Assembly (NCBI GenBank): GCA_964501925.1 | Contig: CAZCTM010000023.1 | Span: 1-24,000 of the forward strand | Length of the DNA: 24,000 nt | Origin: an uncultured Zetaproteobacteria bacterium | Lineage (GTDB): Bacteria; Pseudomonadota; Zetaproteobacteria; Mariprofundales; Mariprofundaceae | Direction of reading: 5' to 3' | Part shown: positions 8,513-21,199 of the stretch, piece by piece | Position numbering within the stretch: the first letter of the stretch is position 1 | Layout: the number at the start of each line of letters is the position of its first letter | Notes under the pieces: generated by a model | The model's input: the letters and a program-made list of their open reading frames with translations, nothing else | Databases searched by the model: none | What the model was told of the DNA's origin: nothing | Position numbers and translations under genes: made by a program

Positions 8513-9127
8513 CTAATCCACATACGCTGGTGGTCCGGCAATATAGGCACCCTTAAGTCCCCATTTTCCAATCTTGGTGCCGATCCGGATAGTCTTGCTC
8601 AGGTTTGCGCGTCGCAACCTTGCACCACGGAGGTCGGCATTGGAGAGGTTGGCACCTTCCAGGTTCGCTCCTCGAAGGTCCGCGCTCCGCAGGTCGGCAT
8701 TCTGAAGGTTGCACCCAGCCAGGTTTGCCTCCATTAGCTTGACCTCTGAGAGATCCCTGCCGGAAAGATCCTGTCCGGACAGATCAATGCCCATCAACGT
8801 CCAGCCGTTTCGCAAATAGACCATGATATTATCAAGATCTATTCGCATCCCCCTGATTTTTGCGCTCATCAGGAAGGTGTGTTCCATCGAGGCACCAACG
8901 AGGTTGGCTCCCTGAAGATTGGTCCTCGTAAGGTTGACGTGGTCAAGGTTTGCCCCTTCCAGGTTGGCGTTTTCGAGGTCGGTTTCCTTAAGATTGCATC
9001 CGGAAAGATTGGCGCGGGAGAGCTTGGCACAGGAAAGATCACACCCTGACAGGTCAAGTCCCGACAGATCTTCTCCGGACAGGTCCCGACCGTCACGTAC
9101 AGCTTGTACTACTTCCTCAGCATTCAT
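8513..9127 (-). CDS. Pentapeptide repeat protein
   Basis: 204 aa dominated by A(D/N)LxG-type pentapeptides (ANLEGANLDHVNLTRTNLQGANL; ADLRSADLRGANLEGANLSNADLRGARLRRANL). They form two blocks split by a roughly 23-aa non-repeat insert (aa 91-113). Confidence 0.9.
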   Translation of the reverse strand: MNAEEVVQAVRDGRDLSGEDLSGLDLSGCDLSCAKLSRANLSGCNLKETDLENANLEGANLDHVNLTRTNLQGANLVGASMEHTFLMSAKIRGMRIDLDNIMVYLRNGWTLMGIDLSGQDLSGRDLSEVKLMEANLAGCNLQNADLRSADLRGANLEGANLSNADLRGARLRRANLSKTIRIGTKIGKWGLKGAYIAGPPAYVD

Positions 9128-9263: not shown

Positions 9264-10238
9264 ATGCATGCGACCTTGCCACTGTTGACCGAAACCGATT
9301 TCCCGACCATTCGGCGAAACAGGCTTGAGACCTTGCAGGTGAATCTTGGTTATCTATGTAACCAAACCTGTGTCCATTGCCATGTTAATGCAGGCCCTCG
9401 CCGTCCCGAGTTGATGGATCAGAAGACAGCTGAGATGGTTCTTGAATTTCTGAGAAATTCCGCAGTGAAAACCCTGGATCTGACTGGCGGGGCACCGGAG
9501 ATGAATCCCCATTTCAGATATCTGGTGACTGAAGCGGGAAAGCTGGGTGTGAAGGTCATGGATCGGTGCAACCTTACCATTCTGGAAGAGGCGGATTATC
9601 AGGGGCTGGCTGAATTTCTGGCCAGCCAGCGTGTTGAGATCATTGCCTCCATGCCCTGTTATCTGGAGGAGAATGTGAATGCCCAACGGGGGATGTGGAC
9701 ATTCCAGGCAAGTATCCGTGCCCTCAGGCGGCTGAATGCCCTGGGCTATGGCCGGGAAGGTTCGGGTTTGGTCATGAATCTGGTGTATAACCCCCTTGGT
9801 CCAAGCCTGCCACCACCTCAGAACATTCTGAAAGAGACCTACAAAAAGGAGCTCAAATCCCGTTACGGGATTGTCTTCAATGATCTTTTTACCATCACCA
9901 ACATGCCTATCCAGCGTTTTGGCAGCATGCTTATTTCTCAGGGGAAGTTTGAGGAGTACATGCAATTGCTCAAGGATGCGTATCGAATGGAAAACCTGGA
10001 TGGTCTCATGTGTCGAAGCCTGATCAGTGTGGATTGGCGGGGGTATGTCTATGACTGCGATTTCAATCAGATGCTGGGGTTGCCGCTGGTGATGAATGGG
10101 AGGCCTCGCCACCACCTGAGCGATCTGATCGGTCGGAGTCTGGAGGGCAATCCCATTGTGGTGATGGACCACTGCTATGGCTGTACGGCCGGCCAGGGCT
10201 CCAGTTGCGGTGGGGCTCTGAACGACGAAATCTCTTGA
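9264..10238 (+). CDS. arsS: Radical SAM/Cys-rich domain protein, ArsS-type (arsenosugar biosynthesis)
   Basis: Radical SAM CxxxCxxC (CNQTCVHC) in LQVNLGYLCNQTCVHCHVNAGP, and a C-terminal Cys-rich tail (CYGCTAGQGSSCGG) typical of the ArsS family. It sits 9 nt upstream of arsM. Confidence 0.85.
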   Translation: MHATLPLLTETDFPTIRRNRLETLQVNLGYLCNQTCVHCHVNAGPRRPELMDQKTAEMVLEFLRNSAVKTLDLTGGAPEMNPHFRYLVTEAGKLGVKVMDRCNLTILEEADYQGLAEFLASQRVEIIASMPCYLEENVNAQRGMWTFQASIRALRRLNALGYGREGSGLVMNLVYNPLGPSLPPPQNILKETYKKELKSRYGIVFNDLFTITNMPIQRFGSMLISQGKFEEYMQLLKDAYRMENLDGLMCRSLISVDWRGYVYDCDFNQMLGLPLVMNGRPRHHLSDLIGRSLEGNPIVVMDHCYGCTAGQGSSCGGALNDEIS

Positions 10239-10247
10239 GAGGAGACA

Positions 10248-11075
10248 ATGCAAATGGAATTCAAGGCTGACGCTATCCGTCGGCAGGTGAGGGAAAGCTA
10301 TGCCGAGGTTGCAAAGTCCAGCAATGAGGGCAGCTGTTGCGGTGAAACAGCCGGCTGCTGCGGTGTGTCCGATGATGCCGCGATCAACGCCCTGATTTCT
10401 ACCCGTCTTGGGTATTCGGAGGATGATCTTGCCAGTGTGCCCGAGGGTGCCGACATGGGCCTGGGTTGTGGCAATCCACGTGCCATTGCAAGTCTCAGGG
10501 TTGGAGAGGTGGTTGTTGATCTTGGGAGTGGTGGTGGCTTCGATGCCTTTCTTGCCGCCCGCGAGGTGGGCGAAACGGGGCACGTGATCGGCATCGACAT
10601 GACGCCGGACATGTTGTCCAAGGCGCGTCGGAACGCAGAAAAAGGGAAATTCACGAATGTTGAGTTCCGGTTGGGTGAGATTGAGCATCTGCCGGTTGCC
10701 GATAACACTGTGGATGTGATCATGTCCAACTGCGTGATCAATCTTTCCCCGAACAAGCCTCAGGTCTTTCGGGAGGCCTTCCGCATCCTTAAACCCGGCG
10801 GAAGGCTGGCCATTTCCGATGTGGTGGCCACCCGTGAGATGCCCGATGAAATGAGAAACGATCCCGCCCTCTATGCCGGCTGCATGGCCGGGGCGTCCCT
10901 GATTGATGATCTTGAGGCGATGATGGCTGAGGCCGGTTTTACGGATGTCCGAATTGAGCCGAAGGATGAATCACGCGAGTTTATCCGCGACTGGGCGCCG
11001 GAGAGGGGAGTGGAAGACTATGTAGTCTCGGCCTACATCATGGCCAGGAAACCCGGGCGGGATTGCTGCAGCTAG
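10248..11075 (+). CDS. arsM: Arsenite S-adenosylmethionine methyltransferase
   Basis: N-terminal Cys pairs (CCGETAGCCG), GLGCGNP, SAM motif VVDLGSGGGFD, SNCVINL and YAGCMAGA match the conserved As(III)-binding Cys positions of ArsM. GAGGAG RBS before the ATG. Confidence 0.9.
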   Translation: MQMEFKADAIRRQVRESYAEVAKSSNEGSCCGETAGCCGVSDDAAINALISTRLGYSEDDLASVPEGADMGLGCGNPRAIASLRVGEVVVDLGSGGGFDAFLAAREVGETGHVIGIDMTPDMLSKARRNAEKGKFTNVEFRLGEIEHLPVADNTVDVIMSNCVINLSPNKPQVFREAFRILKPGGRLAISDVVATREMPDEMRNDPALYAGCMAGASLIDDLEAMMAEAGFTDVRIEPKDESREFIRDWAPERGVEDYVVSAYIMARKPGRDCCS

Positions 11076-11406: not shown

Positions 11407-12018
11407 ATGAGAAAATCAGTGAACATATTTCTCGCAGTTCCGTTGCTTATGGGACTGACGATGTATTCGTTTTCAGCAGAGGCAGGCTCAAACCCCTGTA
11501 ATCCATGCAGTTCAAATCCCTGCAACCCGTGCAAGGTCCAGAAGAAGGTGAACCCATGCAATCCGTGTGGCTCGAATCCGTGCTCGACCAACCCCTGTTC
11601 CATGAAGAAAAAACAGAATCCCTGCTCGACGAAACCAGCCAATCCCTGCGCCATGAAAAGCAATCCGTGTTCAGCGGATGCCAATACGGCAACACGTCCG
11701 CATGCGTATGATAACTTCTGGCAGGCTGTGGCAGTGGGTCGCATGATGTGGAATGATGAGAATCTGGGCACGTCGGGTCTTGCGTGCATGTCCTGCCATG
11801 CGGGATACGAACAGTTGAATCTGGAGAAGCGCCAGAATTTTCCTCATTACGTAAAGATGGTCGGCGATGTTGTGACTCTTGACCAGATGATTAACTACTG
11901 CATGGTTAATCCCATGAAGGGAAAGCAGTTCGGAAAGAATTCCAGGGAGCTTACGGCGATGGCTGCCTACTATCGTGCCTACCGGATGCAGTATCTGAAG
12001 GAGAAGCGAGGCAAGTAA
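11407..12018 (+). CDS. Secreted mono-heme c-type cytochrome with N-terminal Asn-Pro-Cys (NPC) repeat region
   Basis: AAGGAGG RBS and a signal peptide ([26 protein letters not shown]). Eleven NPC tripeptides in aa 29-88. One CxxCH (CMSCH, nt 11785-11799) in a roughly 100-aa C-terminal domain. Confidence 0.85.
11491..11670 (+). repeat. Coding tandem-like repeat: 11 x AAY-CCN-TGY (Asn-Pro-Cys)
   Basis: [60 protein letters not shown], read directly from the sequence. Three C-N-P-C (CxxC) pairs. Confidence 0.9.
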
Positions 12019-12024
12019 CATCGG

Positions 12025-13218
12025 GTGTGCAAGCGGGACTGGATATGGATGGCGCTTGCAGTCGGTTTTTTGGCTGCGGGTGCCCATCTTCTTCTGGCGG
12101 AGGCGCATGACGGGGATCCGGGGTTGCCCGAATCCCATTGGAATCGCCCACTACCGGCGCAAGGGAGCCCGCCTTCAGGTTGGCCGGCGCTCTGGCACGA
12201 CCTGGATCCTCAGGCATGTGGCCAGTGTCATCAGAGGCAGTTTGATGACTGGCGGCAGAGCCTGCATGCCCATGCCTTCTCTGCCGGGCTGGTCGGTCAG
12301 TTCCCGGGTCTTGGAAAGCGTGAATCCAATCGCTGTCTCGATTGCCATGCCCCGCTGGCCGAACAGAAATTCGCTCACGAATCCCAGATCATGGAGGCTC
12401 TGGAGAAGCTTGGGCGCCCGTCTTCCCTGAAAAGGCTACCCCTGCGTCACGCCGGTGTCAGCTGCGCTTCCTGCCATGTCCGTAACTGGAGGCGCTACGG
12501 ACCGCCGCCACGCGACTCGGGCAGGGTCGGCCAGGTAGAAGCCTCGGCGCATGGCGGCTTTTATGCCACCCGGACTTTTGAACAGTCCAGGTTCTGTGCC
12601 GCCTGCCATCAGTTTCCCCAATCGGCAGCGGTCAATGGAAAACCCCTGGAGAACACCGTAGAGGAGTGGAGGCGGAGCCGTTTTGCCAAAGATGGCATTC
12701 AGTGCCAAACCTGTCACATGCCGGATCGACGGCATGAGTTCAAGGGCATTCACGATCCGGCCATGACCCGAAAGGGGCTGGAATTCGATGTGCACCGCGC
12801 CGGACATGGCGGTGAATTGATCATTCGCTCCACCTGGATCGGGCACGCCTTTCCCACCTACGTCACCCCCAGGGTCATTGTCATGGCCGAGGCCCTGGAT
12901 AAGGGTGGAAAAAGCCTGAGGAGCTGGTCATGGGAGATTGTGCGCGAGGTTGTCTTTGAAGGTCGCTGGCGGGAGATTAGGGATAGCAGGCTCATGCCCG
13001 GCCAGCGGCGGAGCTTCCAGCCCGGCCCCTTGCCGGCAGGCACACATGCCCTCGTGTTTCGGGTGAGGGTCTTGCCCGATGATTTTTACAAAGGGGTTTA
13101 CCGCAGCCTTTTGGCATCGAAGCTGAAACCCGCGGCGGCCAGGCAAATCAGGGCTGCACTGGATAGGGCCAGTGAAAACGACTATCTGCTCTTCGAACAG
13201 AGACTAGATCTTCCCTGA
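12025..13218 (+). CDS. Secreted penta-heme c-type cytochrome (cytochrome c554-like multiheme family)
   Basis: Five CxxCH motifs (CGQCH, CLDCH, CASCH, CAACH, CQTCH). N-terminal hydrophobic signal (MALAVGFLAAGAHLLLAEA). A first-heme context (CGQCHQRQFDDWRQSLHAHAF) typical of c554-type multiheme domains. A roughly 150-aa heme-free C-terminal domain. GTG start at 12025, or ATG at 12049. Confidence 0.85.
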   Translation: MCKRDWIWMALAVGFLAAGAHLLLAEAHDGDPGLPESHWNRPLPAQGSPPSGWPALWHDLDPQACGQCHQRQFDDWRQSLHAHAFSAGLVGQFPGLGKRESNRCLDCHAPLAEQKFAHESQIMEALEKLGRPSSLKRLPLRHAGVSCASCHVRNWRRYGPPPRDSGRVGQVEASAHGGFYATRTFEQSRFCAACHQFPQSAAVNGKPLENTVEEWRRSRFAKDGIQCQTCHMPDRRHEFKGIHDPAMTRKGLEFDVHRAGHGGELIIRSTWIGHAFPTYVTPRVIVMAEALDKGGKSLRSWSWEIVREVVFEGRWREIRDSRLMPGQRRSFQPGPLPAGTHALVFRVRVLPDDFYKGVYRSLLASKLKPAAARQIRAALDRASENDYLLFEQRLDLP

Positions 13219-13467
13219 CTCCTGAACTTTCCTCAAGGCCTCCCGGATTCTGTTGCAGTCTGATTCCGACAAGCGTGCTCCCGTGTCGGCGTCGCTTTGC
13301 TGGATGCGGTTCAATATCTCCTCCAGAATCCTGGCGTTGTGCTCATGGTCGCGACAAAAACTGCAGATCATGATATGGAAGCGGAGCCGAATACGTTCGA
13401 GGACGGTTAATTTGCGTTCGCATGAATCAGATAACAGACGGCTTGCTTCCCGGCAATAGTGCTTCAT
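13204..13467 (-). CDS. Small soluble zinc-binding (ZAS, zf-HC2) anti-sigma factor, RsrA-like
   Basis: From Met 13467: MKHYCREASRLL...RFHIMICSFC gives C5-x25-H31-x3-C35-x2-C38. No transmembrane segment. 87 aa. Its ATG overlaps the sigma-factor stop (ATGA, 13464-13467). The track ORF start at 13512 is probably too long. Confidence 0.8.
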   Translation of the reverse strand: MKHYCREASRLLSDSCERKLTVLERIRLRFHIMICSFCRDHEHNARILEEILNRIQQSDADTGARLSESDCNRIREALRKVQESGKI

Positions 13468-14051
13468 ATGCGCCCACCTTTCTTGCAACCAAACCAGTTT
13501 TGTTCGAGGCATTTCCGTAACAGTAAACGGGCGCGGTGCATGATCACGTGCATGTTGGTCGGAGATATATCACAGGCATTACATATGGTTTCCGTATCTT
13601 CACCATTGAGCTCCCTGAGCGAAAAAACGGTCTGCTGCTGTTCCGAGAGCCTTGAAATACATGATGCCAGGACCTTCATGAATTGCTGGTCATTCAGGAG
13701 TTCTTCCGGATTGGTGTTCCAGCGCACGGGGGCATCCTTCCAGTGCCCCTGGGAATCGAAGAATGTCGACGTTGGGTCCGCTTCAGCACGATTCATGATG
13801 TCGCGTTCCCGGATCTGCTTGCGGATATGGTCGGTGATTTTGTGCTTGAGAATCCCCACCAGCCAGGTCCGGACTGAAGATTCGGATCGAAAACCTTGCC
13901 GGGCCTTCCATGCTGCCAGCAAGGTTTCCTGGACCATCTCCCTGCTCAGCTCTTCATTTCTGAGGCGCAGGAGGGCATATCGATAAAGATAATCACCATG
14001 CTGGTTGAGCCAGCTTTCCGCCTCGTGCTGAGCGTGATTCTTTACGGACAT
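13464..14051 (-). CDS. ECF-type RNA polymerase sigma-70 family factor
   Basis: Region 2 (YLYRYALLRLRNEELSREMVQETLLAAWKA...VRTWLVGILKHKITDHIRKQ) and region 4 HTH (LSEQQQTVFSLRELNGEDTETICNACDISPTNMHVIMHRARLLLRKCL). The track ORF extends to 14195, but the extra N-terminus is non-sigma-like and would overlap the divergent gene. Met at 14051 or 14069 is the likely start. Confidence 0.85.
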   Translation of the reverse strand: MSVKNHAQHEAESWLNQHGDYLYRYALLRLRNEELSREMVQETLLAAWKARQGFRSESSVRTWLVGILKHKITDHIRKQIRERDIMNRAEADPTSTFFDSQGHWKDAPVRWNTNPEELLNDQQFMKVLASCISRLSEQQQTVFSLRELNGEDTETICNACDISPTNMHVIMHRARLLLRKCLEQNWFGCKKGGRI

Positions 14052-14180
14052 ACCATCATTCTGCCACATAACCACGAAAGCTCCACAGTGAGAGCATATC
14101 AGTCCCCGACCATGGGTTGTAATGTAGCGCCTTGCCTGCCGACAAAACAACAAAGACGGCATTATGTAAAGGAGTTTCAT

Positions 14181-14645
14181 ATGAAAGCATATCATCCTGT
14201 GAGCCGGTTTGCTTTTGCTGTCCTGGTCTTCCTGTTGACCGGGGCATCAGCGGCAATAGGCAAGCCCGTTGTCATCAAGCTCACCCAGACATCCTGCCAG
14301 TTTGTGGAAATCGAGGGTGTAGACCATGGCTTCAGGAGCAAAAGCGCTGAGGACTGTCGCAGGATCAACCGTGAGACAGGTGCGGAGAGGCTGGCCAAGG
14401 CCAGGGTGCTGGAACTGGAGCCGGGGGAGTACATCTTCCGTGTAAAAAACAAGAACGTTCCCTATGCGCTTGGTTTCTGGCTTCGAGGCAAGGCCCTGGG
14501 AAGACTGACCCTTCCAGGCGTGTCAGGTGGCGGCCTGAGGGCGGGAGAGTCCAGAGATTACCCTGTATCCCTGGTGGAAGGTGAATACCTTTATTCCTGC
14601 CCCTTGAATCCAACCCCGAATTACCTTCTTATTGTCCGACCGTGA
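14181..14645 (+). CDS. Secreted hypothetical protein with three Cys (possible cupredoxin-like beta-sandwich)
   Basis: AAGGAG RBS 6 nt before the ATG at 14181, and a signal peptide (MKAYHPVSRFAFAVLVFLLTGASAA). Strand-like segments (LELEPGEYIFRVKNKN; VEGEYLYSCPLNPTPNYLLIV) are reminiscent of cupredoxin-like domains, but no full copper ligand set is seen. The track ORF start at 13896 is rejected. Confidence 0.6.
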   Translation: MKAYHPVSRFAFAVLVFLLTGASAAIGKPVVIKLTQTSCQFVEIEGVDHGFRSKSAEDCRRINRETGAERLAKARVLELEPGEYIFRVKNKNVPYALGFWLRGKALGRLTLPGVSGGGLRAGESRDYPVSLVEGEYLYSCPLNPTPNYLLIVRP

Positions 14646-15382
14646 AGACATCCCGCCCTCAGGCAGCCATACTGTCTTTCAAGCGCCTGCTCCCTGTTGC
14701 CATCCTGATCGCAGGCCTGGTCGTCTTTTTCGCCTTTGATCTGGGGCGTTATCTGAGCTTTGCGACCCTGCAGGAGCATCGCGGGTTTCTTCTGAACTGG
14801 GTGAACACGCACCCCTGGCTGTCGTCGCTCAGTTACGTTGGCTTGTATATCCTCATTGTGGCTTTTTCCCTGCCTGGCGGGGCTGTCATGACGATCAGTG
14901 GCGGTTTTCTGTTTGGCACCCTCCTGGGAAGCCTGCTGGCGGTGGTTGGGGCCACCATTGGCGCGACAGCGCTCTTTCTGATTGCCAAAACATCTTTGGG
15001 AGATTATCTCCTGCAAAAGGCGGGACCTAGCATCAAGAAAATGCAGGCAGGTTTTTCCAGAAATGCCATGAATTATCTCTTTGTGCTTCGCCTGATTCCC
15101 ATCTTTCCCTTCTTTCTGGTCAACCTGGCGCCGGCATTTCTTGGCGTGAGCCTGCGCGTTTACGTGACAGCAACCTTCTTCGGCATTATGCCGGGCGCAT
15201 TGATCTATGCCATGGTTGGCGCGGGTCTGGGCAGCGTGTTTGATCGAGGTGAGTCGTTCTCAGCGGACTCGGTTCTTACACCGGAAATCATTGGGGGGCT
15301 GGCCGGACTGGCATTGCTCGCCCTTCTTCCTGTCATTTACAACAGGATCAGATCCGGAAAGCACATGCAAGAGGAGGCGTGA
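14642..15382 (+). CDS. TVP38/TMEM64 family (DedA-superfamily, SNARE-associated) inner membrane protein
   Basis: 246 aa with about 5-6 hydrophobic helices and a core pattern (FSLPGGAVMTISGGFLFGTLLGSLLAVVGATIGATALFLIAK ... LRLIPIFPFFLVNLAPAFLGV). Its GTG start overlaps the upstream stop (GTGA, 14642-14645). Confidence 0.8.
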   Translation: MKTSRPQAAILSFKRLLPVAILIAGLVVFFAFDLGRYLSFATLQEHRGFLLNWVNTHPWLSSLSYVGLYILIVAFSLPGGAVMTISGGFLFGTLLGSLLAVVGATIGATALFLIAKTSLGDYLLQKAGPSIKKMQAGFSRNAMNYLFVLRLIPIFPFFLVNLAPAFLGVSLRVYVTATFFGIMPGALIYAMVGAGLGSVFDRGESFSADSVLTPEIIGGLAGLALLALLPVIYNRIRSGKHMQEEA

Positions 15383-16800
15383 TGACCATGAACGTGGATA
15401 TATGCGTGATTGGCGCCGGCTCCGGCGGGCTGGCTGTTGCTGCAGGCGCTTCACAAATGGGGGCCACGGTTGCCCTCGTAGAAAAGGGTGAAATGGGGGG
15501 GGATTGCTTGAACACGGGATGTGTTCCATCCAAGTCCCTGCTTGCCGCGGCCCATGTCGCCCAGAGCGCACGTGAGGCCGGGAAATTTGGCCTGGATGTT
15601 TCTGAGCCGAAAACGCGCTGGGACGGCGTGCATGCGCATGTCCACGGGGTGATGGATGCCATCGCACCCAATGACTCTCAGGAGCGGTTCGAGAAGCTCG
15701 GCGTGAACGTCATTCGCGCCAGGGCCGAATTTATCGACCATCGGACCATCCGGGCAGGTGATCAGAGGGTACGCGCCAAATATTTCGTGCTGGCAACCGG
15801 GTCTTCACCGTTTGTTCCACCCATCGAGGGGCTGAAGGACGTTGCTTATTTGACCAATGAGACGATTTTTCACAACAAGGATGCCATCAAGCACCTGATC
15901 GTGATTGGAGGAGGGCCGATCGGGATGGAAATGGCCCAGGCGCATCGACGACTGGGTGCTGAGGTGACTGTCATGGAACTGGCCCGATTGCTGCCAAAGG
16001 ATGACCCCGACCTGAGCAGGATTGTTGTCCGGCGCATGTCCGATGAGGGTGTCCGGTTTTACGAGGGCGGCAGAAATCTGAAACTGGAGAAGAAGACAGA
16101 CGGGATTGTCGCCAGCTGTGAAACGGAGGAAGGGAGAAAACAGGTTCGGGGTTCGCATCTGTTGATCGCAACTGGCAGACGGGCGAATGTCACTGGTCTG
16201 AATCTTGAAGCCGCGGGTATCGTCTTTTCGGACAGGGGCGTGCAGGTGGATGCGCGTCTTCGGACAACCAATAAACGAATTTTTGCCGTGGGCGATGTTG
16301 TCGGTCCTTACCAGTTTACACATATGGCTGCTTATCAGGCAGGTATTGTTATCCGGAATATTCTGTTTCGTCTTCCCGCCAGGGTGGACTATTCGGCCGT
16401 CCCCTGGGTGACCTATACCGATCCGGAACTGGCCCATGTCGGCATGTCACAGGCGGAAGCAGAGGCAAAGGGGCTCGATGTCCGGGTCTTGCACTGGTCT
16501 TTTCGTAAAAACGATCGCGCCCAGGCGGAACGAAGAACAGAGGGGCAGGTCAAGGTCGTCACCACAAAGAGAGGGTTGATCCTGGGTGCCAGCATCGTTG
16601 GTTTGCATGCGGGTGAGCTGATTCAACCCTGGATCCTGGCGGTCAGTGAAAAAATGAAGATCGGCTCCATGGCAAACATGATTTCGCCGTATCCTACACT
16701 GGCAGAGGTCAACAAACGCATTGCAGGCAGCTATTACACGTCCACCCTGTTCGGTGAACGCATGCGGAAACTTGTACGTTTCCTGCTAAGACTCCCCTGA
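15379..16800 (+). CDS. FAD-dependent pyridine nucleotide-disulfide oxidoreductase (Lpd/MerA-like, class I)
   Basis: FAD GxGxxG (VIGAGSGG), redox-active disulfide (GGDCLNTGCVPSK), NAD(P)H site (VIGGGPIGMEMA), and a C-terminal dimerisation domain with SPYPTLAE. Start/stop overlap with the TVP38 gene (GTGA, 15379-15382). No NmerA domain and no C-terminal Cys pair. Confidence 0.9.
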   Translation: MMTMNVDICVIGAGSGGLAVAAGASQMGATVALVEKGEMGGDCLNTGCVPSKSLLAAAHVAQSAREAGKFGLDVSEPKTRWDGVHAHVHGVMDAIAPNDSQERFEKLGVNVIRARAEFIDHRTIRAGDQRVRAKYFVLATGSSPFVPPIEGLKDVAYLTNETIFHNKDAIKHLIVIGGGPIGMEMAQAHRRLGAEVTVMELARLLPKDDPDLSRIVVRRMSDEGVRFYEGGRNLKLEKKTDGIVASCETEEGRKQVRGSHLLIATGRRANVTGLNLEAAGIVFSDRGVQVDARLRTTNKRIFAVGDVVGPYQFTHMAAYQAGIVIRNILFRLPARVDYSAVPWVTYTDPELAHVGMSQAEAEAKGLDVRVLHWSFRKNDRAQAERRTEGQVKVVTTKRGLILGASIVGLHAGELIQPWILAVSEKMKIGSMANMISPYPTLAEVNKRIAGSYYTSTLFGERMRKLVRFLLRLP

Positions 16801-16810
16801 GGCAGCAGCG

Positions 16811-17578
16811 ATGAAAAAGGCCATGCCTACGGCCCTGGTGTTGGGCCTTGTTTTCCTGAAGGTTGGGGGTGTACTGGCTGCAGAACCTGACTGGAGCACC
16901 TATGCTGATCTGCTGCAGCAATATGTTCAGCCGGGTGAAATCGATGGCGTTCATCTGCAGGTTGTGGATTATGAGGCAATCCAGGCTGATCCCGACTGGC
17001 CGAAACTCACCGGTCAACTGGAAGCCTTCTCACCGGAGATGCTTGAAGGGAACAGGGAGAAGATGGCCTTTTACATCAATGCCTACAATATCCTGGCCAT
17101 CAAGGTGGTGCTTGATCACTGGCCCCTGAATGGCATTAAGGATGCTGGCAGTCTGTTTCGGAGCGTGTGGAAAATTCCGGCAGGAAGGATTGGTGGCAGG
17201 GTTGTTACGCTCGATGAAATCGAGCACGGAATCCTGCGTCCCATGAACGATCCAAGAATTCACATGGCCATCGTCTGCGCTTCCGTGAGTTGCCCGGACC
17301 TCCTGGGTGAGCCGTATACAGCCGCGAGACTCGATGAGCAACTGGACAGGCAAAGCATCCGTTTTCTCGAGAACCCCGGCAAGGGCCTGGATATGCGGGG
17401 AGATCATGTGGTTGTGTCAAGGATCTTTGATTGGTTTTCCGGTGATTTTGAGGTCAGCGGGGGTGTTGCGGCCTTTATCAAACGTTATCGCCGTGATCTG
17501 CCCATCGACAGACCCATCAGAGCAGAAATGCCGTACAACTGGGGGCTGAATGGAAAAGCCGGTCACGTTCATCGCTAA
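16811..17578 (+). CDS. Secreted DUF547 domain protein
   Basis: Signal peptide (MKKAMPTALVLGLVFLKVGGVLAA). DUF547-like blocks: AFYINAYNILAIKVVLDHWP, DPRIHMAIVCASVSCPDL, VSRIFDWFSGDF. Confidence 0.8.
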   Translation: MKKAMPTALVLGLVFLKVGGVLAAEPDWSTYADLLQQYVQPGEIDGVHLQVVDYEAIQADPDWPKLTGQLEAFSPEMLEGNREKMAFYINAYNILAIKVVLDHWPLNGIKDAGSLFRSVWKIPAGRIGGRVVTLDEIEHGILRPMNDPRIHMAIVCASVSCPDLLGEPYTAARLDEQLDRQSIRFLENPGKGLDMRGDHVVVSRIFDWFSGDFEVSGGVAAFIKRYRRDLPIDRPIRAEMPYNWGLNGKAGHVHR

Positions 17579-17881: not shown

Positions 17882-19948
17882 ATGTCTGATCGCGTTCGGA
17901 CAGGAATCCTGGCTGGCCTGCTCTTGCTTGGTCTTGCTTCCTGTGATCAACCTGATAACGGGGCACAGGTTGTTGCTGCCAGCAACCCGCCTTTAATTGC
18001 CGAATTTGATCCCGGCAACAGCGTCATTCCGTTTCCAAGCAACCTTCTCTTTACGGGTACGCTGGATGGAACCCTTAACATTCCGTTCCCGCCCGGAACA
18101 ACGCCTGCCGATCCGGCCAATATGCCGATTGTGGCCATGAACACGCTGGATGGCTTTTCGACAATCGCACCGATCAGCACGAAATTTTCTGCTGCTCTGA
18201 ATTCCGCGACAATCCTGCCGGGTCAAACGGTTCGCTTGTTCGAGGTTACGACAAGTGTGCAGGGTGCAGTAACCGGGGTCGTCGCCGAGCTTATTCCGGG
18301 GCTGGATTATTTTGCCCTTGTTTCTCCGACTGATTCCACACAGAAGACACTTGTCATCAAGCCCTTAAGGCCATTGAACAGCAATGCCCAGTATATGGTC
18401 GTGTTGACCAGCGGGATTAAAAGCACGAGCGGGTTTAATGCATCACCATCCACCGTCTTTTCCCTCCTGAAAGGAACGACTCCTCTTGTTGATGTTGCGG
18501 GCAAAACAACGACACCACTGCTCACGGATGCAGAGGCCCAGCAACTTGAACCCTTGCGTCAGCTCACCCAGACCATGCTGCTGGCAGCGGCGGGGCAGGG
18601 GATTCCGCAGTCAAGTGTTGTTCTGACCTGGACGTTCAAGACACAAACACTTGGAACAGTGCTGGCAGCGATCCGGGCCAACAGCCTGTTACTGACTCCA
18701 CCTGCACCAACCGTTGTTGATGCCCCGCCTTCTCCGTTGACGGGGGGGCTGGGTCGCCTGGATATAGCTACGTTTGCGATTGCAAACGGCCTGGACCCTT
18801 TGTTGTTCCCAAATGTGGGTTCGGTTGTGATTGGCGCTGTCCCATTGCCATACTACCTGCAAGCTGCCGCCAATCCTCAGGACACCGCTCCCCTGACCGG
18901 ATTCTTCCAGTTTGCCCCCGGAAGCAGCGTTCCCACCGTCCAGTCTACCCAGACCGTTCCATTTCTTCTGACCACCCCCAACACCCCCGCGCCACCGGGT
19001 GGCTGGCCTGTGGTTATCTTTCAGCATGGCTTTACCGTGGATAAGTCAGTGGTGATGGGTATTGCCAACACCCTGGCGCAGGCGGGATTCGCCACGATTG
19101 CCATTGACAGTGTTCTGCACGGCGACCGGACATTTGGTCTGGATCTGGTGACCGAGATACTGGATCCGATTACCGGCGACTATATCGTGACAGCAGAGGT
19201 TCCCGACGGTGTACCCGATTCGTCGGGAAGACACTACCTTAATCTGGCCAGCTTTCTGACGTTCCGTGACAATATCCGCCAAAGCGTCGCGGACCTGATC
19301 CATCTTACCCGCATGCTTGAGGCCCAGGCAGTGATCGATGTGGTTAACAACACGACCGGTGCTCCTGGGGCGGATGGTTTGACTGACATCTGGAATGCCG
19401 GCTTCAAATTTGTTGGGCACTCCAACGGCGGGATTCTTGGAACCCTTTACATGGCTGTCGAACCATCCGTGACCACGGCTGTGCTGGCCAATCCGGGAGG
19501 AATCTATTCGGATATAGCAAGGAACTCCACGGAGATCAGCCCCCTGGTCCTGGCCGGTCTGGCCGCACAGGGCATTTTCCCCGGAAGCTCGGAATTTGAT
19601 GCATTTTTTGTTGCGGCTCAGACCGTTCTCGATGATGGTGATCCGATCAATTACGGTTCCGCATCGGTGGGAAAGAACATCCTGCTTCAGAAAACCACGC
19701 CGGATGCGGTTGTGCCTAATGCCTCAACGGACGCTCTCATTGGTGTGCTGGGATTGCCCCAGGTTGGTTTTGCCGCCGGGAATTCCCCGTTCCCGGGAAG
19801 CGGTTTTGTCAATCTGATTCAGGGTGATCACAGTTCATTCCTGAGCCCGGCGGCTTCCCTTGCAGCCACAACCGAAATGCAGACGGAGACGGCGATCTTT
19901 TTGACGACCGGTGTGATTCAGACAAATGACCCGCTGGTTGTGGAATAG
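17882..19948 (+). CDS. Lipoprotein lipase/esterase, VolA-like (bacterial virulence-factor lipase N-terminal domain plus alpha/beta hydrolase)
   Basis: Lipobox LLGLASC. The N-terminal block (IPFPSNLLFTGTLDGTLNIP...MNTLDGFSTIAPISTKFS) resembles the Lipase_bact_N family. Hydrolase core: VVIFQHGFTVDKS, with nucleophile elbow GHSNG. Confidence 0.8.
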   Translation: MSDRVRTGILAGLLLLGLASCDQPDNGAQVVAASNPPLIAEFDPGNSVIPFPSNLLFTGTLDGTLNIPFPPGTTPADPANMPIVAMNTLDGFSTIAPISTKFSAALNSATILPGQTVRLFEVTTSVQGAVTGVVAELIPGLDYFALVSPTDSTQKTLVIKPLRPLNSNAQYMVVLTSGIKSTSGFNASPSTVFSLLKGTTPLVDVAGKTTTPLLTDAEAQQLEPLRQLTQTMLLAAAGQGIPQSSVVLTWTFKTQTLGTVLAAIRANSLLLTPPAPTVVDAPPSPLTGGLGRLDIATFAIANGLDPLLFPNVGSVVIGAVPLPYYLQAAANPQDTAPLTGFFQFAPGSSVPTVQSTQTVPFLLTTPNTPAPPGGWPVVIFQHGFTVDKSVVMGIANTLAQAGFATIAIDSVLHGDRTFGLDLVTEILDPITGDYIVTAEVPDGVPDSSGRHYLNLASFLTFRDNIRQSVADLIHLTRMLEAQAVIDVVNNTTGAPGADGLTDIWNAGFKFVGHSNGGILGTLYMAVEPSVTTAVLANPGGIYSDIARNSTEISPLVLAGLAAQGIFPGSSEFDAFFVAAQTVLDDGDPINYGSASVGKNILLQKTTPDAVVPNASTDALIGVLGLPQVGFAAGNSPFPGSGFVNLIQGDHSSFLSPAASLAATTEMQTETAIFLTTGVIQTNDPLVVE

Positions 19949-19954
19949 GGGGAG

Positions 19955-21199
19955 ATGATGAAGCACTTTTTGTTGCGGGCTCTAGGTTTTCTGACGGTAC
20001 TGGTTCTGTTCCAGTCACAGGCCTTCTCGGCCGGCTTCCGGATTCCGGAAGTGGATACAGCCGCCTTTTCCATGTCCAATACCGGGGTGGCGGGTCTGAA
20101 CGATGCGGCGGCCGGCTTCTACAATCCGGCACTTCTGACTGACCTGGAGGGGACCCGGATCTCACTGGGGTCCGTCTTCATTCATCCATCAAACGATACC
20201 ACACCCATTGTCGGCGGGGTTCGCCTGCCGACTGTCAGCCAGAAGAGTCACTGGTTTTATCCCGTTCACGCCCACGTAACTCACCGCTACAATGACCAGT
20301 TTGCGGTTGGCGTTTCTATGACAAATCCGTTCGGTCTCGGTGTTGAATATCCAAACAACTGGGTCTATCGGGAGGACAACATCCTGGCCGATCTCAAGTC
20401 CTTCAACTTTGATCTTTCCATGGCTTTCAGGCCTACCGACAGTTTTTCCGTAGGGGTGGGGCTGGACTATATGCGCTCGACAATCAAGCTGATTCAGGGC
20501 CTGCCGGACCTGACGGCCATTGGTGGTGCTGCGGCACCATCCGTTTTCCTCAGTGGCCTGGGTAGCGGCTGGGGAGGTCGTGCCGGCTTTGCCTACAAGG
20601 TGAGTGAGGAGATCAGCATTGGCGCCACATATCGCTCAGCCATCAATGTGGACTACACGGGAACAGCCAATTTTATGGGGGCTCCCACCGCGCTGTTCCC
20701 GGATCAGGATGTAACGACAGCGATCAAGATGCCAGATATTGCCATGATTGGCATTGCCTGGGACAACGGGACCACGCGGCTTGAATTTGATGTCGACTGG
20801 ACCGGCTGGAGCACCTTTGATCAGCTGGTGATCAATTTCGCCATTGGCACACCGGAAGGGAAACAGAAGGTGAGTCTGAGAAACTGGTCGGATGTATGGG
20901 CATTCCGTCTCGGGGGCGAGCATCATTTTGACGGTTTTGTCCTGAGGGCAGGTGCCTATTATGACCAGACCCCGATTCCTGATACCACCCTGGATGCATT
21001 GCTGCCAGGCGCTGATCGTTACGGGGTTTCTGCCGGTATCGGTTTTGACCTGTTGGGAGGCAAATACGGCAAGGTGGATGTGGGTTACATGCATATCTTC
21101 TTCAAGAACAGGGCCACTTCCGTGAATGTCAATAATGTGAATGCGGATTATTCGAATTCCGCCGACCTTGTCGGAATCACTTACTCCTACGAAATGTGA
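19955..21199 (+). CDS. fadL: Outer membrane long-chain fatty acid/hydrophobic compound transporter, FadL/OMPP1/TodX family
   Basis: Signal peptide ending AFSA, an N-terminal hatch motif (GFRIPEVDTAAFSMSNTGVAGLNDAAAGFYNPALL), alternating beta-strand pattern, and 414 aa. It lies 6 nt downstream of the lipase stop. Confidence 0.85.
   Translation: MMKHFLLRALGFLTVLVLFQSQAFSAGFRIPEVDTAAFSMSNTGVAGLNDAAAGFYNPALLTDLEGTRISLGSVFIHPSNDTTPIVGGVRLPTVSQKSHWFYPVHAHVTHRYNDQFAVGVSMTNPFGLGVEYPNNWVYREDNILADLKSFNFDLSMAFRPTDSFSVGVGLDYMRSTIKLIQGLPDLTAIGGAAAPSVFLSGLGSGWGGRAGFAYKVSEEISIGATYRSAINVDYTGTANFMGAPTALFPDQDVTTAIKMPDIAMIGIAWDNGTTRLEFDVDWTGWSTFDQLVINFAIGTPEGKQKVSLRNWSDVWAFRLGGEHHFDGFVLRAGAYYDQTPIPDTTLDALLPGADRYGVSAGIGFDLLGGKYGKVDVGYMHIFFKNRATSVNVNNVNADYSNSADLVGITYSYEM

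What the first reader, a model, noticed from the sequence alone, without database searches (positions are those of the whole stretch)
13204..17578. Candidate undescribed envelope-spanning redox system: RsrA-type ECF sigma/anti-sigma pair divergent from a coupled operon (secreted Cys protein, TVP38/DedA-like, MerA/Lpd-like flavoprotein, secreted DUF547)
Seen in sequence, part (a), the regulator pair. The 87-aa anti-sigma has no membrane segment and carries C5-x25-H31-x3-C35-x2-C38. This is the same ligand spacing as the zinc/thiol-redox sensor RsrA (C11, H37, C41, C44, from memory). Its ATG overlaps the ECF sigma stop (ATGA). Seen in sequence, part (b), the operon. About 129 bp away and divergent, four genes are packed with GTGA start/stop overlaps (14642-14645, 15379-15382) and one 10-nt gap. 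The genes encode a signal-peptide protein with three Cys, a TVP38/TMEM64 polytopic membrane protein, a cytoplasmic CxxxxC flavoprotein, and a signal-peptide DUF547 protein. The predicted topology therefore runs from NAD(P)H in the cytoplasm, through a membrane protein, to two periplasmic proteins. Established knowledge: TVP38/DedA-superfamily and DUF547 proteins have no settled biochemical function in bacteria. I also recall database entries in which TVP38/TMEM64 and FAD-dependent oxidoreductase domains are fused in one polypeptide, which would support a functional partnership. Inference: this is a thiol-oxidant- or metal/metalloid-responsive module that moves reducing power or a reduced substrate across the inner membrane. 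Control by the neighbouring sigma pair is only positional. Not all ZAS anti-sigmas are redox sensors.
Basis: partly seen in the sequence, partly recalled or inferred. Interest (0 to 1): 0.7.

Follow-up and report, generated by a model that had tools for sequence, protein, structure and literature searches.

The report
Conserved DedA-membrane/flavoprotein reductase operon with periplasmic partners
The four-gene operon is real and is built around a widely conserved but uncharacterised pair, a TVP38/DedA-type membrane protein and a dedicated mercuric-reductase-like flavoprotein, joined here by two optional secreted cysteine proteins; this gives a testable handle on what this class of bacterial DedA proteins does.

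Summary

New findings:
1. The conserved core is only the TVP38/VTT protein plus the flavoprotein. They are adjacent in 27 of 32 well-flanked loci, occur in two gene orders, and are reported in the literature as a domain fusion.
2. The "secreted Cys protein" belongs to a compact, highly conserved, unnamed family. It has a cupredoxin fold closest to the EfeO N-terminal domain, three invariant Cys and no Cu ligands. It sits next to the core in 18 of 55 loci.
3. DUF547 (invariant CxxxxC, secreted) is a second optional partner, found in 7 of 32 loci. It often occupies the slot of the cupredoxin-like gene.
4. The membrane protein has no cysteine, so it cannot relay electrons as DsbD does.
5. The flavoprotein has Tyr where Lpd and RclA have the catalytic His, as MerA does. 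It lacks MerA's C-terminal Cys pair.
6. The sigma/anti-sigma pair is ZAS-type by motif only, not an RsrA/SigR orthologue. Its link to the operon recurs in 2 of 8 sigma-centred loci.

The most likely mechanism is mer/rcl-like: a substrate is captured, moved across the membrane and reduced in the cytoplasm. This is inferred, not shown. The function remains unknown.

The parts
13204..13467 (-). Soluble 87-aa ZAS-type anti-sigma factor (C5-x25-H31-x3-C35-x2-C38).
   Evidence: PF13490 scores 24 bits against a cutoff of 22.2. NCBIfam antisigmaE scores 49.1 against a cutoff of 50. The C5/H31/C35/C38 ligands are conserved in homologues L167-L170, but C16 is not. There is no hydrophobic segment.
13464..14048 (-). 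ECF sigma factor of the TIGR02943 family. It may start at the upstream in-frame ATG at 14069.
   Evidence: TIGR02943 scores 186.1 bits against a cutoff of 162.2. Sigma70_r2 and r4_2 domains are present. The stop overlaps the anti-sigma ATG as ATGA.
14049..14180 (.). Divergent 132-bp intergenic region. It includes the AAGGAG ribosome-binding site of g1.
   Evidence: No sigma-70-like promoter and no convincing shared ECF motif were found.
14181..14645 (+). g1: a secreted 154-aa cupredoxin-fold protein resembling the EfeO Cup domain. It has invariant C39, C59 and C140 and the motif YSCPLNPTP. It lacks His/His/Met copper ligands.
   Evidence: - No Pfam or NCBIfam family.
- 1144 homologues at 55-70% identity.
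- Invariant residues listed.
- AF2 model with pLDDT 90.
- Foldseek best hit is EfeO 7wgu, E 2.5e-5.
- hhalign gives 85% probability to the E. coli EfeO N-terminus.
- Found in 572 species genomes.
- 369 clusters at 50% identity.
14642..15382 (+). TVP38/TMEM64-type DedA (VTT domain, COG0398-like) polytopic inner-membrane protein, with no cysteine.
   Evidence: PF09335 scores 74.7 bits. Homologues are 60-75% identical. No Cys appears among the invariant columns of 16 homologues, and the window protein has zero Cys.
15379..16800 (+). Cytoplasmic group-1 flavoprotein of the pyridine-nucleotide-disulfide-oxidoreductase family.
- C43xxxxC48 redox pair.
- Tyr in place of the catalytic His (PYPTLAE).
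- An Lpd/RclA-like Glu in the NAD-binding strand.
- No C-terminal Cys pair.
- A conserved basic C-terminal tail.
   Evidence: - Domain assignments.
- Best NCBIfam hit NF004991, 466 bits (cutoff 620). MerA TIGR02053 scores 374 (cutoff 454).
- The closest solved structure is MerA 5x1y, E 6e-76, with PYLTMAE aligned to PYPTLAE.
- Conservation measured over 69 homologues.
- Lpd and RclA have His at this position.
16811..17578 (+). Secreted DUF547 protein with invariant C156-A-S-x-x-C161-P, IEHxxLR, and conserved His, Asp and Trp residues.
   Evidence: PF04784 scores 90.3 bits. Alignment of nine operon-linked homologues. Adjacent to VTT in 7 of 32 well-flanked loci.
17882..21199 (+). Possible downstream extension: a secreted lipase-like alpha/beta hydrolase (17882-19948) and a FadL-type outer-membrane channel (19955-21199).
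   Evidence: Pfam and NCBIfam assignments. A FadL-like gene lies downstream of the VTT-flavoprotein (± g1) operon in L017, L023, L025, L041, L079, L089 and L133. The lipase also follows it in L079. Whether these genes belong to the module is uncertain.

Best explanation
**What it is.** The + strand genes are one translationally coupled operon built on an ancient two-gene core, to which this Zetaproteobacteria-like organism has added two secreted, cysteine-bearing accessory proteins.

The core:
- A cysteine-free TVP38/DedA (VTT) inner-membrane protein.
- A dedicated flavoprotein with a MerA-like active site (CxxxxC, Tyr instead of the acid-base His) and an Lpd/RclA-like Glu in its NAD-binding strand.

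The two accessory proteins:
- An EfeO-Cup-like cupredoxin-fold protein with three invariant Cys.
- A DUF547 protein with an invariant CxxxxC.

**Most likely working scheme (inferred; it follows mer and rcl logic).**
1. The periplasmic proteins capture a thiol-reactive species, either a soft metal or metalloid or an oxidant-derived compound.
2. The VTT protein moves the substrate, not electrons, to the cytoplasmic face.
3. The flavoprotein is docked there, possibly through its conserved basic C-terminal tail, and reduces the substrate with NAD(P)H.

**Regulators.** The divergent ECF sigma and soluble zinc-type anti-sigma are a genuine ZAS pair. They may switch the operon on under thiol or metal stress, but that link is only positional.

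**How sure.** That this is a real conserved module: about 0.85. The direction and chemistry proposed here: about 0.35.
For: **Shown**
- Overlapping stop and start codons.
- VTT and flavoprotein adjacent in 27 of 32 VTT-centred metagenome loci with at least 1.8 kb of flank. DUF547 is present in 7 and g1 in 4 of these.
- g1 is adjacent to VTT and flavoprotein in 18 of 55 g1-centred genome loci. Two gene orders occur: g1-VTT-flavo in Zetaproteobacteria and Entotheonella, and g1-flavo-VTT in Alphaproteobacteria and others.
- PF07992/PF02852 is the most common fusion partner of COG0398 DedA proteins (PMC10127716).
- VTT has no Cys.
- The flavoprotein family has invariant CxxxxC and P-Y-P-T. It has no conserved C-terminal Cys but a conserved tail AGSYYTxxLFSxRTRKxV.
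- MerA 5x1y is the closest solved relative and shares the Tyr. Lpd and RclA have His there.
- g1 has a cupredoxin fold nearest to the EfeO Cup domain, which belongs to a metal-uptake system. It has invariant Cys, Asp, His and Glu residues.
- DUF547 partners are all secreted or anchored and carry an invariant CxxxxC.
- DUF547 is fused to a glutaredoxin domain in plant class IV GRXs (PMC13621322).
- RclABC provides a precedent: a cytoplasmic flavoprotein reductase, an inner-membrane protein and a small periplasmic protein acting together (PMC12096828).
- Sigma-pair homologue L168 (68% identity) is again divergent from VTT-flavoprotein.
Against: - No substrate is identified, and no experiment exists.
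- The VTT-flavoprotein pair sits beside housekeeping genes (rnpA, yidD, yidC, engB, argB) in many marine alphaproteobacterial loci. COG0398 DedA proteins are reported essential in Caulobacter and Dinoroseobacter. This fits a housekeeping role better than a detoxification role.
- g1 is almost absent from plasmids, with one weak hit among 72,556 records.
- COG0398 proteins are thought to be lipid scramblases, not solute transporters.
- The flavoprotein lacks MerA's C-terminal Cys pair, which hands over the metal.
- g1 lacks classical metal ligands apart from Cys, and most g1 genes (37 of 55) are not next to the core.
- The sigma pair is not detected beside the other zetaproteobacterial operons. 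Only L017 has enough upstream flank to be informative.
Confidence: 0.35

Rival explanations
1. Outward reductant shuttle, which is the closest workable form of the reader's idea. The flavoprotein reduces a small disulfide such as a low-molecular-weight thiol or lipoate. VTT exports or flips the reduced form. g1 and DUF547 use it to keep periplasmic thiols reduced or to repair oxidised envelope proteins.
For: - Both periplasmic partners carry invariant Cys that would need a reductant in an oxidising periplasm.
- DUF547 is fused to glutaredoxin in plants.
- g1 lies directly after secreted MsrB and MsrA in L075.
- The regulator is a ZAS anti-sigma.
- The flavoprotein carries the same Glu in its NAD-binding strand as Lpd and RclA.
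Against: - The flavoprotein family invariably has Tyr where the disulfide reductase Lpd (and RclA) has the catalytic His.
- VTT has no Cys, so there is no DsbD or CcdA-type relay.
- No thioredoxin-fold partner is present in the operon.
Confidence: 0.2
2. Membrane-lipid housekeeping. VTT is a phospholipid or isoprenoid-lipid scramblase. The flavoprotein is a membrane-docked reductase acting on a lipid-soluble substrate such as a quinone, an oxidised lipid or a lipoyl-type compound. g1, DUF547, the lipase and FadL are lineage-specific additions for envelope lipid turnover.
For: - COG0398 DedAs resemble eukaryotic scramblases, associate with aerobic lifestyles, and are essential in two alphaproteobacteria.
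- The core pair lies next to yidC, rnpA and argB in many loci.
- FadL-like and lipase genes lie downstream of the operon in at least 7 loci.
- A Chalcone_3 (fatty-acid-binding-like) gene follows the flavoprotein in L168.
- Sigma homologues sit divergent from beta-oxidation genes in L171-L173.
- The flavoprotein has a conserved basic, amphipathic C-terminal tail.
Against: - This does not explain why the optional partners are secreted proteins with invariant cysteines.
- It does not explain the MerA-like Tyr substitution.
- FadL and lipase are found only in the zetaproteobacterial loci.
Confidence: 0.2
3. There is no joint system beyond the two-gene core. g1 and DUF547 are independent periplasmic proteins that merely share an operon here, and the sigma pair regulates other genes.
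For: - g1 occurs without the core in 37 of 55 loci, in many other contexts: two-component systems, cytochromes, YeeE and Msr.
- DUF547 is absent from 25 of 32 core loci.
- The neighbours of the sigma pair vary.
Against: - g1 joins the core in two different gene orders across distant phyla.
- DUF547 takes the position immediately upstream of VTT in 5-6 independent loci.
- Translational coupling is seen in the window.
Confidence: 0.08
4. An ordinary mercury-resistance reductase (MerA) with unusual transport partners.
For: MerA is the closest solved structure and the second-best NCBIfam hit. It shares the Tyr-for-His substitution.
Against: - Below the MerA cutoff (374 against 454 bits).
- No C-terminal Cys pair and no NmerA domain.
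- No merR, merT or merP.
- A Glu sits in the NAD-binding strand where MerA has Gln-Arg-Ser.
- g1 is nearly absent from plasmids.
Confidence: 0.02

Closest known systems
COG0398 (TVP38/TMEM64-type) DedA proteins fused to pyridine-nucleotide-disulfide oxidoreductase domains (Todor et al., mBio 2023, PMC10127716)
   Same: The same two families are paired. Here they are separate but translationally coupled genes, adjacent in 84% of well-flanked loci.
   Different: The literature records only the fusion, in one sentence, with no function. The periplasmic partners (the g1 cupredoxin-like family and DUF547), the Tyr-for-His active site and the regulators are not described there.
mer operon (MerP periplasmic, MerT membrane, MerA cytoplasmic reductase)
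   Same: Three-compartment layout. The flavoprotein's closest solved relative is MerA, with the same Tyr replacing the catalytic His. The periplasmic partner carries essential-looking Cys.
   Different: - No C-terminal Cys pair and no NmerA domain, and the score is below the MerA cutoff.
- The membrane protein belongs to an unrelated superfamily and has no Cys.
- The periplasmic protein has a cupredoxin fold, not the MerP ferredoxin-like fold.
- There is no MerR.
- The system is chromosomal and widespread, not mobile.
E. coli RclABC (RclA flavoprotein HOSCN/Cu(II) reductase, RclB periplasmic DUF1471, RclC inner-membrane DUF417)
   Same: A cytoplasmic group-1 flavoprotein reductase is co-operonic with an inner-membrane protein and a small periplasmic protein. 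All three are needed for one stress defence, by a mechanism still unknown (PMC12096828). The regulator is oxidant-sensing.
   Different: - All three proteins belong to different families: RclA scores 187 bits against a 740 cutoff.
- RclA keeps the catalytic His.
- RclB and RclC have no Cys, whereas g1 and DUF547 have invariant Cys.
EfeO N-terminal cupredoxin (Cup) domain of the EfeUOB iron-uptake system
   Same: It is the best fold match to g1 and aligns at profile level, including the Cys in GEYxxxC...P...Y/K...IV. It is periplasmic and part of a metal-handling system.
   Different: - g1 is a stand-alone protein with no M75/imelysin domain, and no efeU or efeB lies nearby.
- g1 has an extra invariant Cys pair region (C39, C59).
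- Sequence similarity is too low for HMMER to detect against the PDB.
RsrA-SigR and other ZAS anti-sigma/ECF pairs
   Same: The protein is small, soluble and translationally coupled to its sigma.
   Different: The sigma is a TIGR02943-family protein, not SigR. There is no detectable sequence similarity to solved ZAS proteins. Redox sensing is untested.

Membership tests
ZAS (zinc-binding anti-sigma, zf-HC2) | H-x3-C-x2-C motif in the anti-sigma domain, plus a fourth upstream ligand | tested here: met
   H31-x3-C35-x2-C38 and C5 are present. All four are conserved in homologues L167-L170. PF13490 scores 24 bits against a cutoff of 22.2.
ZAS (zinc-binding anti-sigma, zf-HC2) | Encoded directly downstream of, and co-transcribed with, an ECF sigma | tested here: met
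   ATGA stop/start overlap at 13464-13467. The same order is seen in 7 other loci.
RsrA-SigR orthologous group (thiol-redox switch) | Partner sigma belongs to the SigR/SigH group, and the anti-sigma is homologous to RsrA | tested here: not met
   The sigma's best family is TIGR02943, above its cutoff. The PDB sequence search with the sigma returns an entry named sigma-H (6in7_B, E 8.4e-6) only as a weak match on a par with RpoE, and returns no SigR. The search with the anti-sigma finds no RsrA, ChrR or RslA.
RsrA-SigR orthologous group (thiol-redox switch) | Oxidant-triggered disulfide formation, Zn release and sigma release | not testable with these tools
   Needs biochemistry.
Mercuric reductase MerA | Redox-active CxxxxC and Tyr in place of the catalytic His | tested here: met
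   C43/C48 and PYPTLAE are aligned to PYLTMAE of MerA 5x1y.
Mercuric reductase MerA | C-terminal Cys-Cys pair for Hg(II) hand-over, and a family-level score | tested here: not met
   There is no Cys after position 247, and none is conserved in 69 homologues. TIGR02053 scores 374 bits against a cutoff of 454.
Classical group-1 disulfide reductases (Lpd, Gor, mycothione reductase) | FAD and NAD domains, a dimerisation domain and CxxxxC | tested here: met
   PF07992, PF00070 and PF02852.
Classical group-1 disulfide reductases (Lpd, Gor, mycothione reductase) | His-Glu acid-base dyad (HPTxxE) in the C-terminal domain | tested here: not met
   Tyr is invariant at the His position, while Lpd and RclA have His. 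All equivalog models score below their cutoffs.
DedA superfamily, TVP38/TMEM64 (COG0398-like) branch | VTT domain, with named relatives | tested here: met
   PF09335 scores 74.7 bits against a cutoff of 33.9. Homologues are named TVP38/TMEM64 or YdjX by their sources. Assignment to the COG itself was not run.
DsbD/CcdA-type transmembrane electron conduit | Conserved membrane-embedded Cys pairs | tested here: not met
   The VTT protein has zero Cys, and no Cys column is conserved in 16 homologues.
Type-1 (blue) copper cupredoxins | Cupredoxin beta-sandwich fold | tested here: met
   An AF2 model with pLDDT 90 matches EfeO Cup, auracyanin, amicyanin and nitrosocyanin.
Type-1 (blue) copper cupredoxins | His...Cys...His...Met copper ligand set | tested here: not met
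   The loop is C140-PLNPTP-N/D-Y, with no His or Met. By motif comparison with the remote relative P0407, Tyr95 appears to occupy the upstream His position.
EfeO (EfeUOB iron uptake) | Cup domain plus a C-terminal M75/imelysin domain, with efeU and efeB neighbours | tested here: not met
   Only the Cup-like domain is present (154 aa). There is no efeU or efeB in the window or in related loci.
RclABC | RclA equivalog with DUF1471 (RclB) and DUF417 (RclC) | tested here: not met
   RclA model NF040477 scores 187 bits against a cutoff of 740. The partners belong to other families. The resemblance is in architecture only.
DUF547 (PF04784) | Pfam family score | tested here: met
   90.3 bits against a cutoff of 27.

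The most novel reading that the evidence does not exclude
Bacterial TVP38/COG0398 DedA proteins work as the membrane component of a dedicated reductase system. A cysteine-free DedA protein hands a periplasm- or membrane-derived substrate to a docked MerA-like flavoprotein. A previously unnamed cupredoxin-fold thiol protein family (g1) and DUF547 act as interchangeable periplasmic capture modules. This would be a new three-compartment metal(loid)/oxidant-reduction system. It would also be the first biochemical function for this DedA branch, for DUF547 and for the g1 family.
Probability: 0.3. Interest if true: 0.8.

Novelty: new variant of a known kind. Interest (0 to 1): 0.6.

Why it matters
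The function of COG0398/TVP38-type DedA proteins in bacteria is an open question. They are widespread in aerobes and reported essential in Caulobacter and Dinoroseobacter, yet their activity is unknown (PMC10127716).

This locus and its relatives show that one well-conserved branch is almost always paired with a specific flavoprotein that has a MerA-like active site. They also show that the pair recruits two families of secreted cysteine proteins with no known function.

That yields concrete experiments:
- A four-gene operon to delete.
- A soluble enzyme to assay.
- Two small periplasmic proteins to test for metal or thiol chemistry.

If the substrate turns out to be a metal, a metalloid or an oxidant, the system would be a new parallel to mer and rcl. 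If it is a lipid, it would tie DedA scramblases to redox chemistry.

Tried and rejected
- **DUF547 structure.** An AlphaFold run from the single sequence failed (pLDDT 32.5). No solved homologue was found by profile search.
- **g1 sequence profile against the PDB.** Nothing meaningful. Only the fold search and hhalign link g1 to EfeO.
- **Promoter analysis.**
  - No sigma-70-like site lies in the divergent region.
  - A dyad search over eight sigma upstream regions gave no ECF-type -35/-10 motif.
  - It found only a conserved TGGCAG(G/A)AT element about 15 nt before the start codon, which overlaps the ribosome-binding site.
  - Regulation therefore stays unresolved.
- **Rfam.** No RNA family in the window.
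- **Regulators in related loci.** LysR, TetR and BaeS-like two-component systems match no informative equivalog.
- **Arsenic link.** The ArsS and ArsM genes of the window recur only with the sigma pair (L167), not with g1/VTT/flavoprotein loci. An arsenic-specific role for the operon is therefore not supported.
- **Plasmids.** g1 is essentially absent, and the single hit was uninformative.
- **Literature.** No paper combines DUF547 with TVP38, or TVP38/SNARE-associated proteins with mercuric reductase, apart from the mBio 2023 fusion remark.
- **Domain fusions of g1.** Searched in 1.84 billion representatives. Only stand-alone, N-terminally extended or tandem-repeat forms were found.

Full report
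**1. Observation**

| Gene | Coordinates | Strand | Size |
|---|---|---|---|
| Anti-sigma | 13204-13467 | - | 87 aa |
| ECF sigma | 13464-14048 | - | 194 aa (201 if it starts at 14069) |
| Secreted protein g1 | 14181-14645 | + | 154 aa |
| VTT/TVP38 protein | 14642-15382 | + | 246 aa |
| Flavoprotein | 15379-16800 | + | 473 aa |
| DUF547 protein | 16811-17578 | + | 255 aa |

- The ATGA and the two GTGA overlaps, the 10-nt gap and a 132-bp divergent spacer were verified base by base.
- Pfam confirms zf-HC2, Sigma70_r2/r4_2, the VTT domain, Pyr_redox_2/Pyr_redox_dim and DUF547.
- The anti-sigma has C5, H31, C35 and C38 and no hydrophobic segment.
- The window is identical to JGI metagenome 3300038380 and SRR9849936 contigs. 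Its closest genome relatives are Zetaproteobacteria/Mariprofundaceae MAGs: g1 is 82% identical in L006 and VTT 74-75%.

**2. The conserved unit is a two-gene core with optional partners**

I searched outward from two genes.

*From g1.* A genome scan found the family in 572 species genomes. Among 55 loci with at least 2.6 kb on both sides, 18 carry VTT and the flavoprotein directly downstream. Two gene orders occur:
- g1-VTT-flavoprotein in Zetaproteobacteria and Entotheonella.
- g1-flavoprotein-VTT in Alphaproteobacteria, Arenicellales and others.

*From VTT.* In a metagenome scan, 32 loci had at least 1.8 kb on both sides:

| Neighbour of VTT | Loci (of 32) |
|---|---|
| Flavoprotein | 27 |
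| DUF547 | 7 |
| g1 | 4 |

- DUF547 often sits immediately upstream of VTT, in the slot g1 occupies in the window.
- All four genes together occur only in the window and three zetaproteobacterial loci (L006, L007, L017).
PF07992+PF02852 are the most common fusion partners of COG0398 DedA proteins, and their function is unknown (PMC10127716).
- No paper in the library links DUF547 or a cupredoxin-like protein to this pair.

**3. The four proteins**

*g1*
- It has no Pfam or NCBIfam family.
- It belongs to a compact family: 1144 sequences in the large database and 369 clusters at 50% identity among 1.84 billion representatives. Members stay 55-70% identical across phyla.
- Invariant features are C39, C59, C140, D48, E43, E45 and the motifs VPYxLGFWLRG, LPxVSGGG and YSCPLNPTP.
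- An AF2 model (pLDDT 90) is a cupredoxin sandwich.
- Its best PDB match is the N-terminal Cup domain of E. coli EfeO (E 2.5e-5). A profile alignment to that domain gives 85% probability and aligns C140 with the EfeO Cys.
- The His/His/Met copper ligands are absent.
- Remote relatives keep only the CPLNPTP Cys plus a His in a NDGIDHEVGF motif that lines up with g1's NKNVPYALGF, where g1 has Tyr.

*VTT*
- It is a highly conserved TVP38/YdjX-type DedA protein.
- It has no cysteine at all and none conserved in the family. This excludes a DsbD or CcdA-like thiol relay.

*Flavoprotein*
- It has invariant C43xxxxC48 and a conserved basic C-terminal tail. It has no C-terminal Cys pair.
- Its closest solved relative is MerA (5x1y, E 6e-76). 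Like MerA, it has Tyr (PYPTLAE) where Lpd (HAHPTLHE) and RclA (FTHPSMSE) have the catalytic His.
- Its NAD-binding strand carries the Glu seen in Lpd and RclA rather than MerA's Gln-Arg-Ser.
- It falls below every NCBIfam equivalog cutoff.

*DUF547*
- Homologues linked to VTT are all secreted or anchored.
- They share invariant C-A-S-x-x-C-P, IEHxxLR, and His, Asp and Trp residues.
- In plants DUF547 is fused to a glutaredoxin domain (PMC13621322).

**4. The regulator pair**

- The anti-sigma is a bona fide ZAS by motif. C5/H31/C35/C38 are conserved in four homologues at 38-60% identity, and C16 is not.
- It is not an RsrA orthologue:
  - The sigma is a TIGR02943-family ECF.
  - The anti-sigma finds no solved ZAS protein by sequence.
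  - The sigma's PDB matches are only weak general ECF hits. They include RpoE and one entry named sigma-H at E 8.4e-6, with no SigR.
- Synteny with the operon is weak. No sigma was detected beside the other zetaproteobacterial operons. L006 has no upstream flank and L007 only about 1.5 kb, so only L017 is informative.

| Locus | Sigma identity | Neighbours of the sigma pair |
|---|---|---|
| Window | 100% | Divergent from the operon; convergent with multihaem and SoxA-like cytochromes |
| L167 | 73% | Blue-copper protein; ArsM and ArsS |
| L168 | 68% | Divergent from VTT-flavoprotein; blue-copper protein |
| L170 | 63% | Convergent with multihaem and SoxA-like cytochromes |
| L171-L173 | 64% | Divergent from beta-oxidation genes |
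| L169 | 56% | Unrelated genes |

- In summary, 2 of the 8 sigma-centred loci adjoin VTT-flavoprotein.
- No ECF-type promoter motif could be extracted.
- Control of the operon by this sigma is possible but unproven.

**5. Mechanism**

*Shown*
- A conserved, translationally coupled module.
- A membrane partner that cannot carry electrons through cysteines.
- A reductase with a MerA-like rather than a disulfide-reductase-like catalytic residue.
- Two optional periplasmic partners with invariant cysteines.

*Inferred (confidence about 0.35)*
The system works like mer or rcl.
1. The periplasmic proteins capture a thiol-reactive species.
2. VTT brings it to the cytoplasmic face.
3. The docked flavoprotein reduces it with NAD(P)H.

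RclABC is the nearest functional precedent. It combines a flavoprotein HOSCN/Cu(II) reductase, the inner-membrane protein RclC and the periplasmic protein RclB. All three are required, and the mechanism is unknown (PMC12096828).

*Rivals*
- **Outward thiol shuttle (0.2).** It is favoured by the periplasmic Cys, by the DUF547-glutaredoxin fusion and by g1 lying next to secreted MsrB and MsrA in L075. It is weakened by the missing catalytic His.
- **Lipid-housekeeping role (0.2).** It is supported by several observations:
  - COG0398 proteins resemble scramblases and are essential in two alphaproteobacteria.
  - The core lies next to yidC, rnpA and argB in many loci.
  - FadL, lipase and Chalcone_3 genes are neighbours.
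- **Coincidental co-operonic genes (0.08).**
- **True MerA (0.02).**

**6. Comparison and novelty**

The locus is not a member of the mer, rcl, EfeUOB, DsbD or RsrA-SigR systems. At least one defining feature of each was tested and not met (see the membership table).

It is best described as a new variant of the three-compartment reductase-system theme. Its membrane component comes from the DedA superfamily, and it has two uncharacterised periplasmic families.

The VTT-flavoprotein association itself is already noted in the literature. The periplasmic partners, the active-site signature and the gene-order evidence appear to be new.

I score interest at 0.6. The substrate is unknown, but the finding gives a direct experimental route into the open question of what COG0398 DedA proteins do.

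Noticed in passing
window 9264-11075 (+): ArsS radical-SAM arsenosugar-type enzyme (TIGR04167, 455 bits, cutoff 300) and an arsenite methyltransferase (NF008823, 373 bits, cutoff 263) lie directly upstream, on the same strand as the two cytochrome genes. The same ArsS+ArsM pair (77% and 71% identity) sits beside the homologous sigma/anti-sigma pair in L167. It is not found in other g1/VTT loci.
   Followed up: partly
window 11407-12018 (+); also L066:5214-6594, L011:6116-6970, L080:6281-6880: A SoxA/TsdA-like mono-haem cytochrome c. Its N-terminus is a low-complexity run of about 12 'NPC' repeats (NPCNPC, NPCAAK). Relatives flanked by long NPCAAK repeat arrays lie next to g1 in three unrelated genomes, once with a YeeE/Sulf_transp gene. 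I know of no description of these cysteine repeats.
   Followed up: partly
window 12025-13218 (+): A five-CxxCH multihaem cytochrome (c554/MtrC-domain-like). Its 3' end overlaps the 3' end of the convergent anti-sigma gene by 15 bp (13204-13218). The same cytochrome pair (53% and 51% identity) is convergent with the sigma pair in L170.
   Followed up: partly
window 17882-21199 (+): A secreted lipase-like hydrolase (Lipase_bact_N, Big_5 and an alpha/beta hydrolase domain) and a FadL-type outer-membrane channel follow the operon. FadL-like genes lie downstream of the VTT-flavoprotein (± g1) operon in at least seven other loci, and the lipase in L079.
   Followed up: partly
window about 14055-14066 (- strand); L167-L169 and L171-L173 upstream of the sigma gene (partial CATGGC in L170): A conserved TGGCAG(G/A)AT element about 15 nt upstream of the annotated sigma start codon in 7 of 8 homologous loci. 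It is non-coding and partly overlaps the Shine-Dalgarno sequence. Two CTGCC(A/G)ACA(A/T)AAC-like direct repeats lie on the + strand of the window intergenic region (14059-14073 and 14133-14148). These were seen by eye only.
   Followed up: partly
L167:926-1180 and L168:4586-4843: A conserved 84-85-aa Gln/Asn/Ser-rich small ORF (MQ[FI]NT..SPSQ[MV]NNSQSSTS...ENTRLD[IV]F) lies divergent from the sigma gene in two loci. In L168 it lies between the sigma gene and VTT, where the window has g1.
   Followed up: no
L072 (three copies) and L056 (two copies) near position 8001; P0407: Tandem g1 paralogues at 39-41% identity occur in some alphaproteobacterial loci. A 322-aa protein made of three g1-like repeats lacks the N-terminal Cys pair but keeps FCPLNPTPKY and a His.
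   Followed up: no
L075:6797-8426: Secreted MsrB and MsrA genes directly precede g1 on the same strand in a Comamonadaceae MAG. A TIGR02943-like ECF sigma lies just downstream.
   Followed up: no
about 20 g1-centred loci, e.g. L044:6590-7789 and L062:5955-7758: When g1 stands alone it is often preceded by an OmpR-type response regulator and a BaeS-like histidine kinase with a short His-rich periplasmic loop.
   Followed up: partly
window 8513-9127 (-): A pentapeptide-repeat protein (Alr5209/HetL-like), unrelated to the finding.
   Followed up: no
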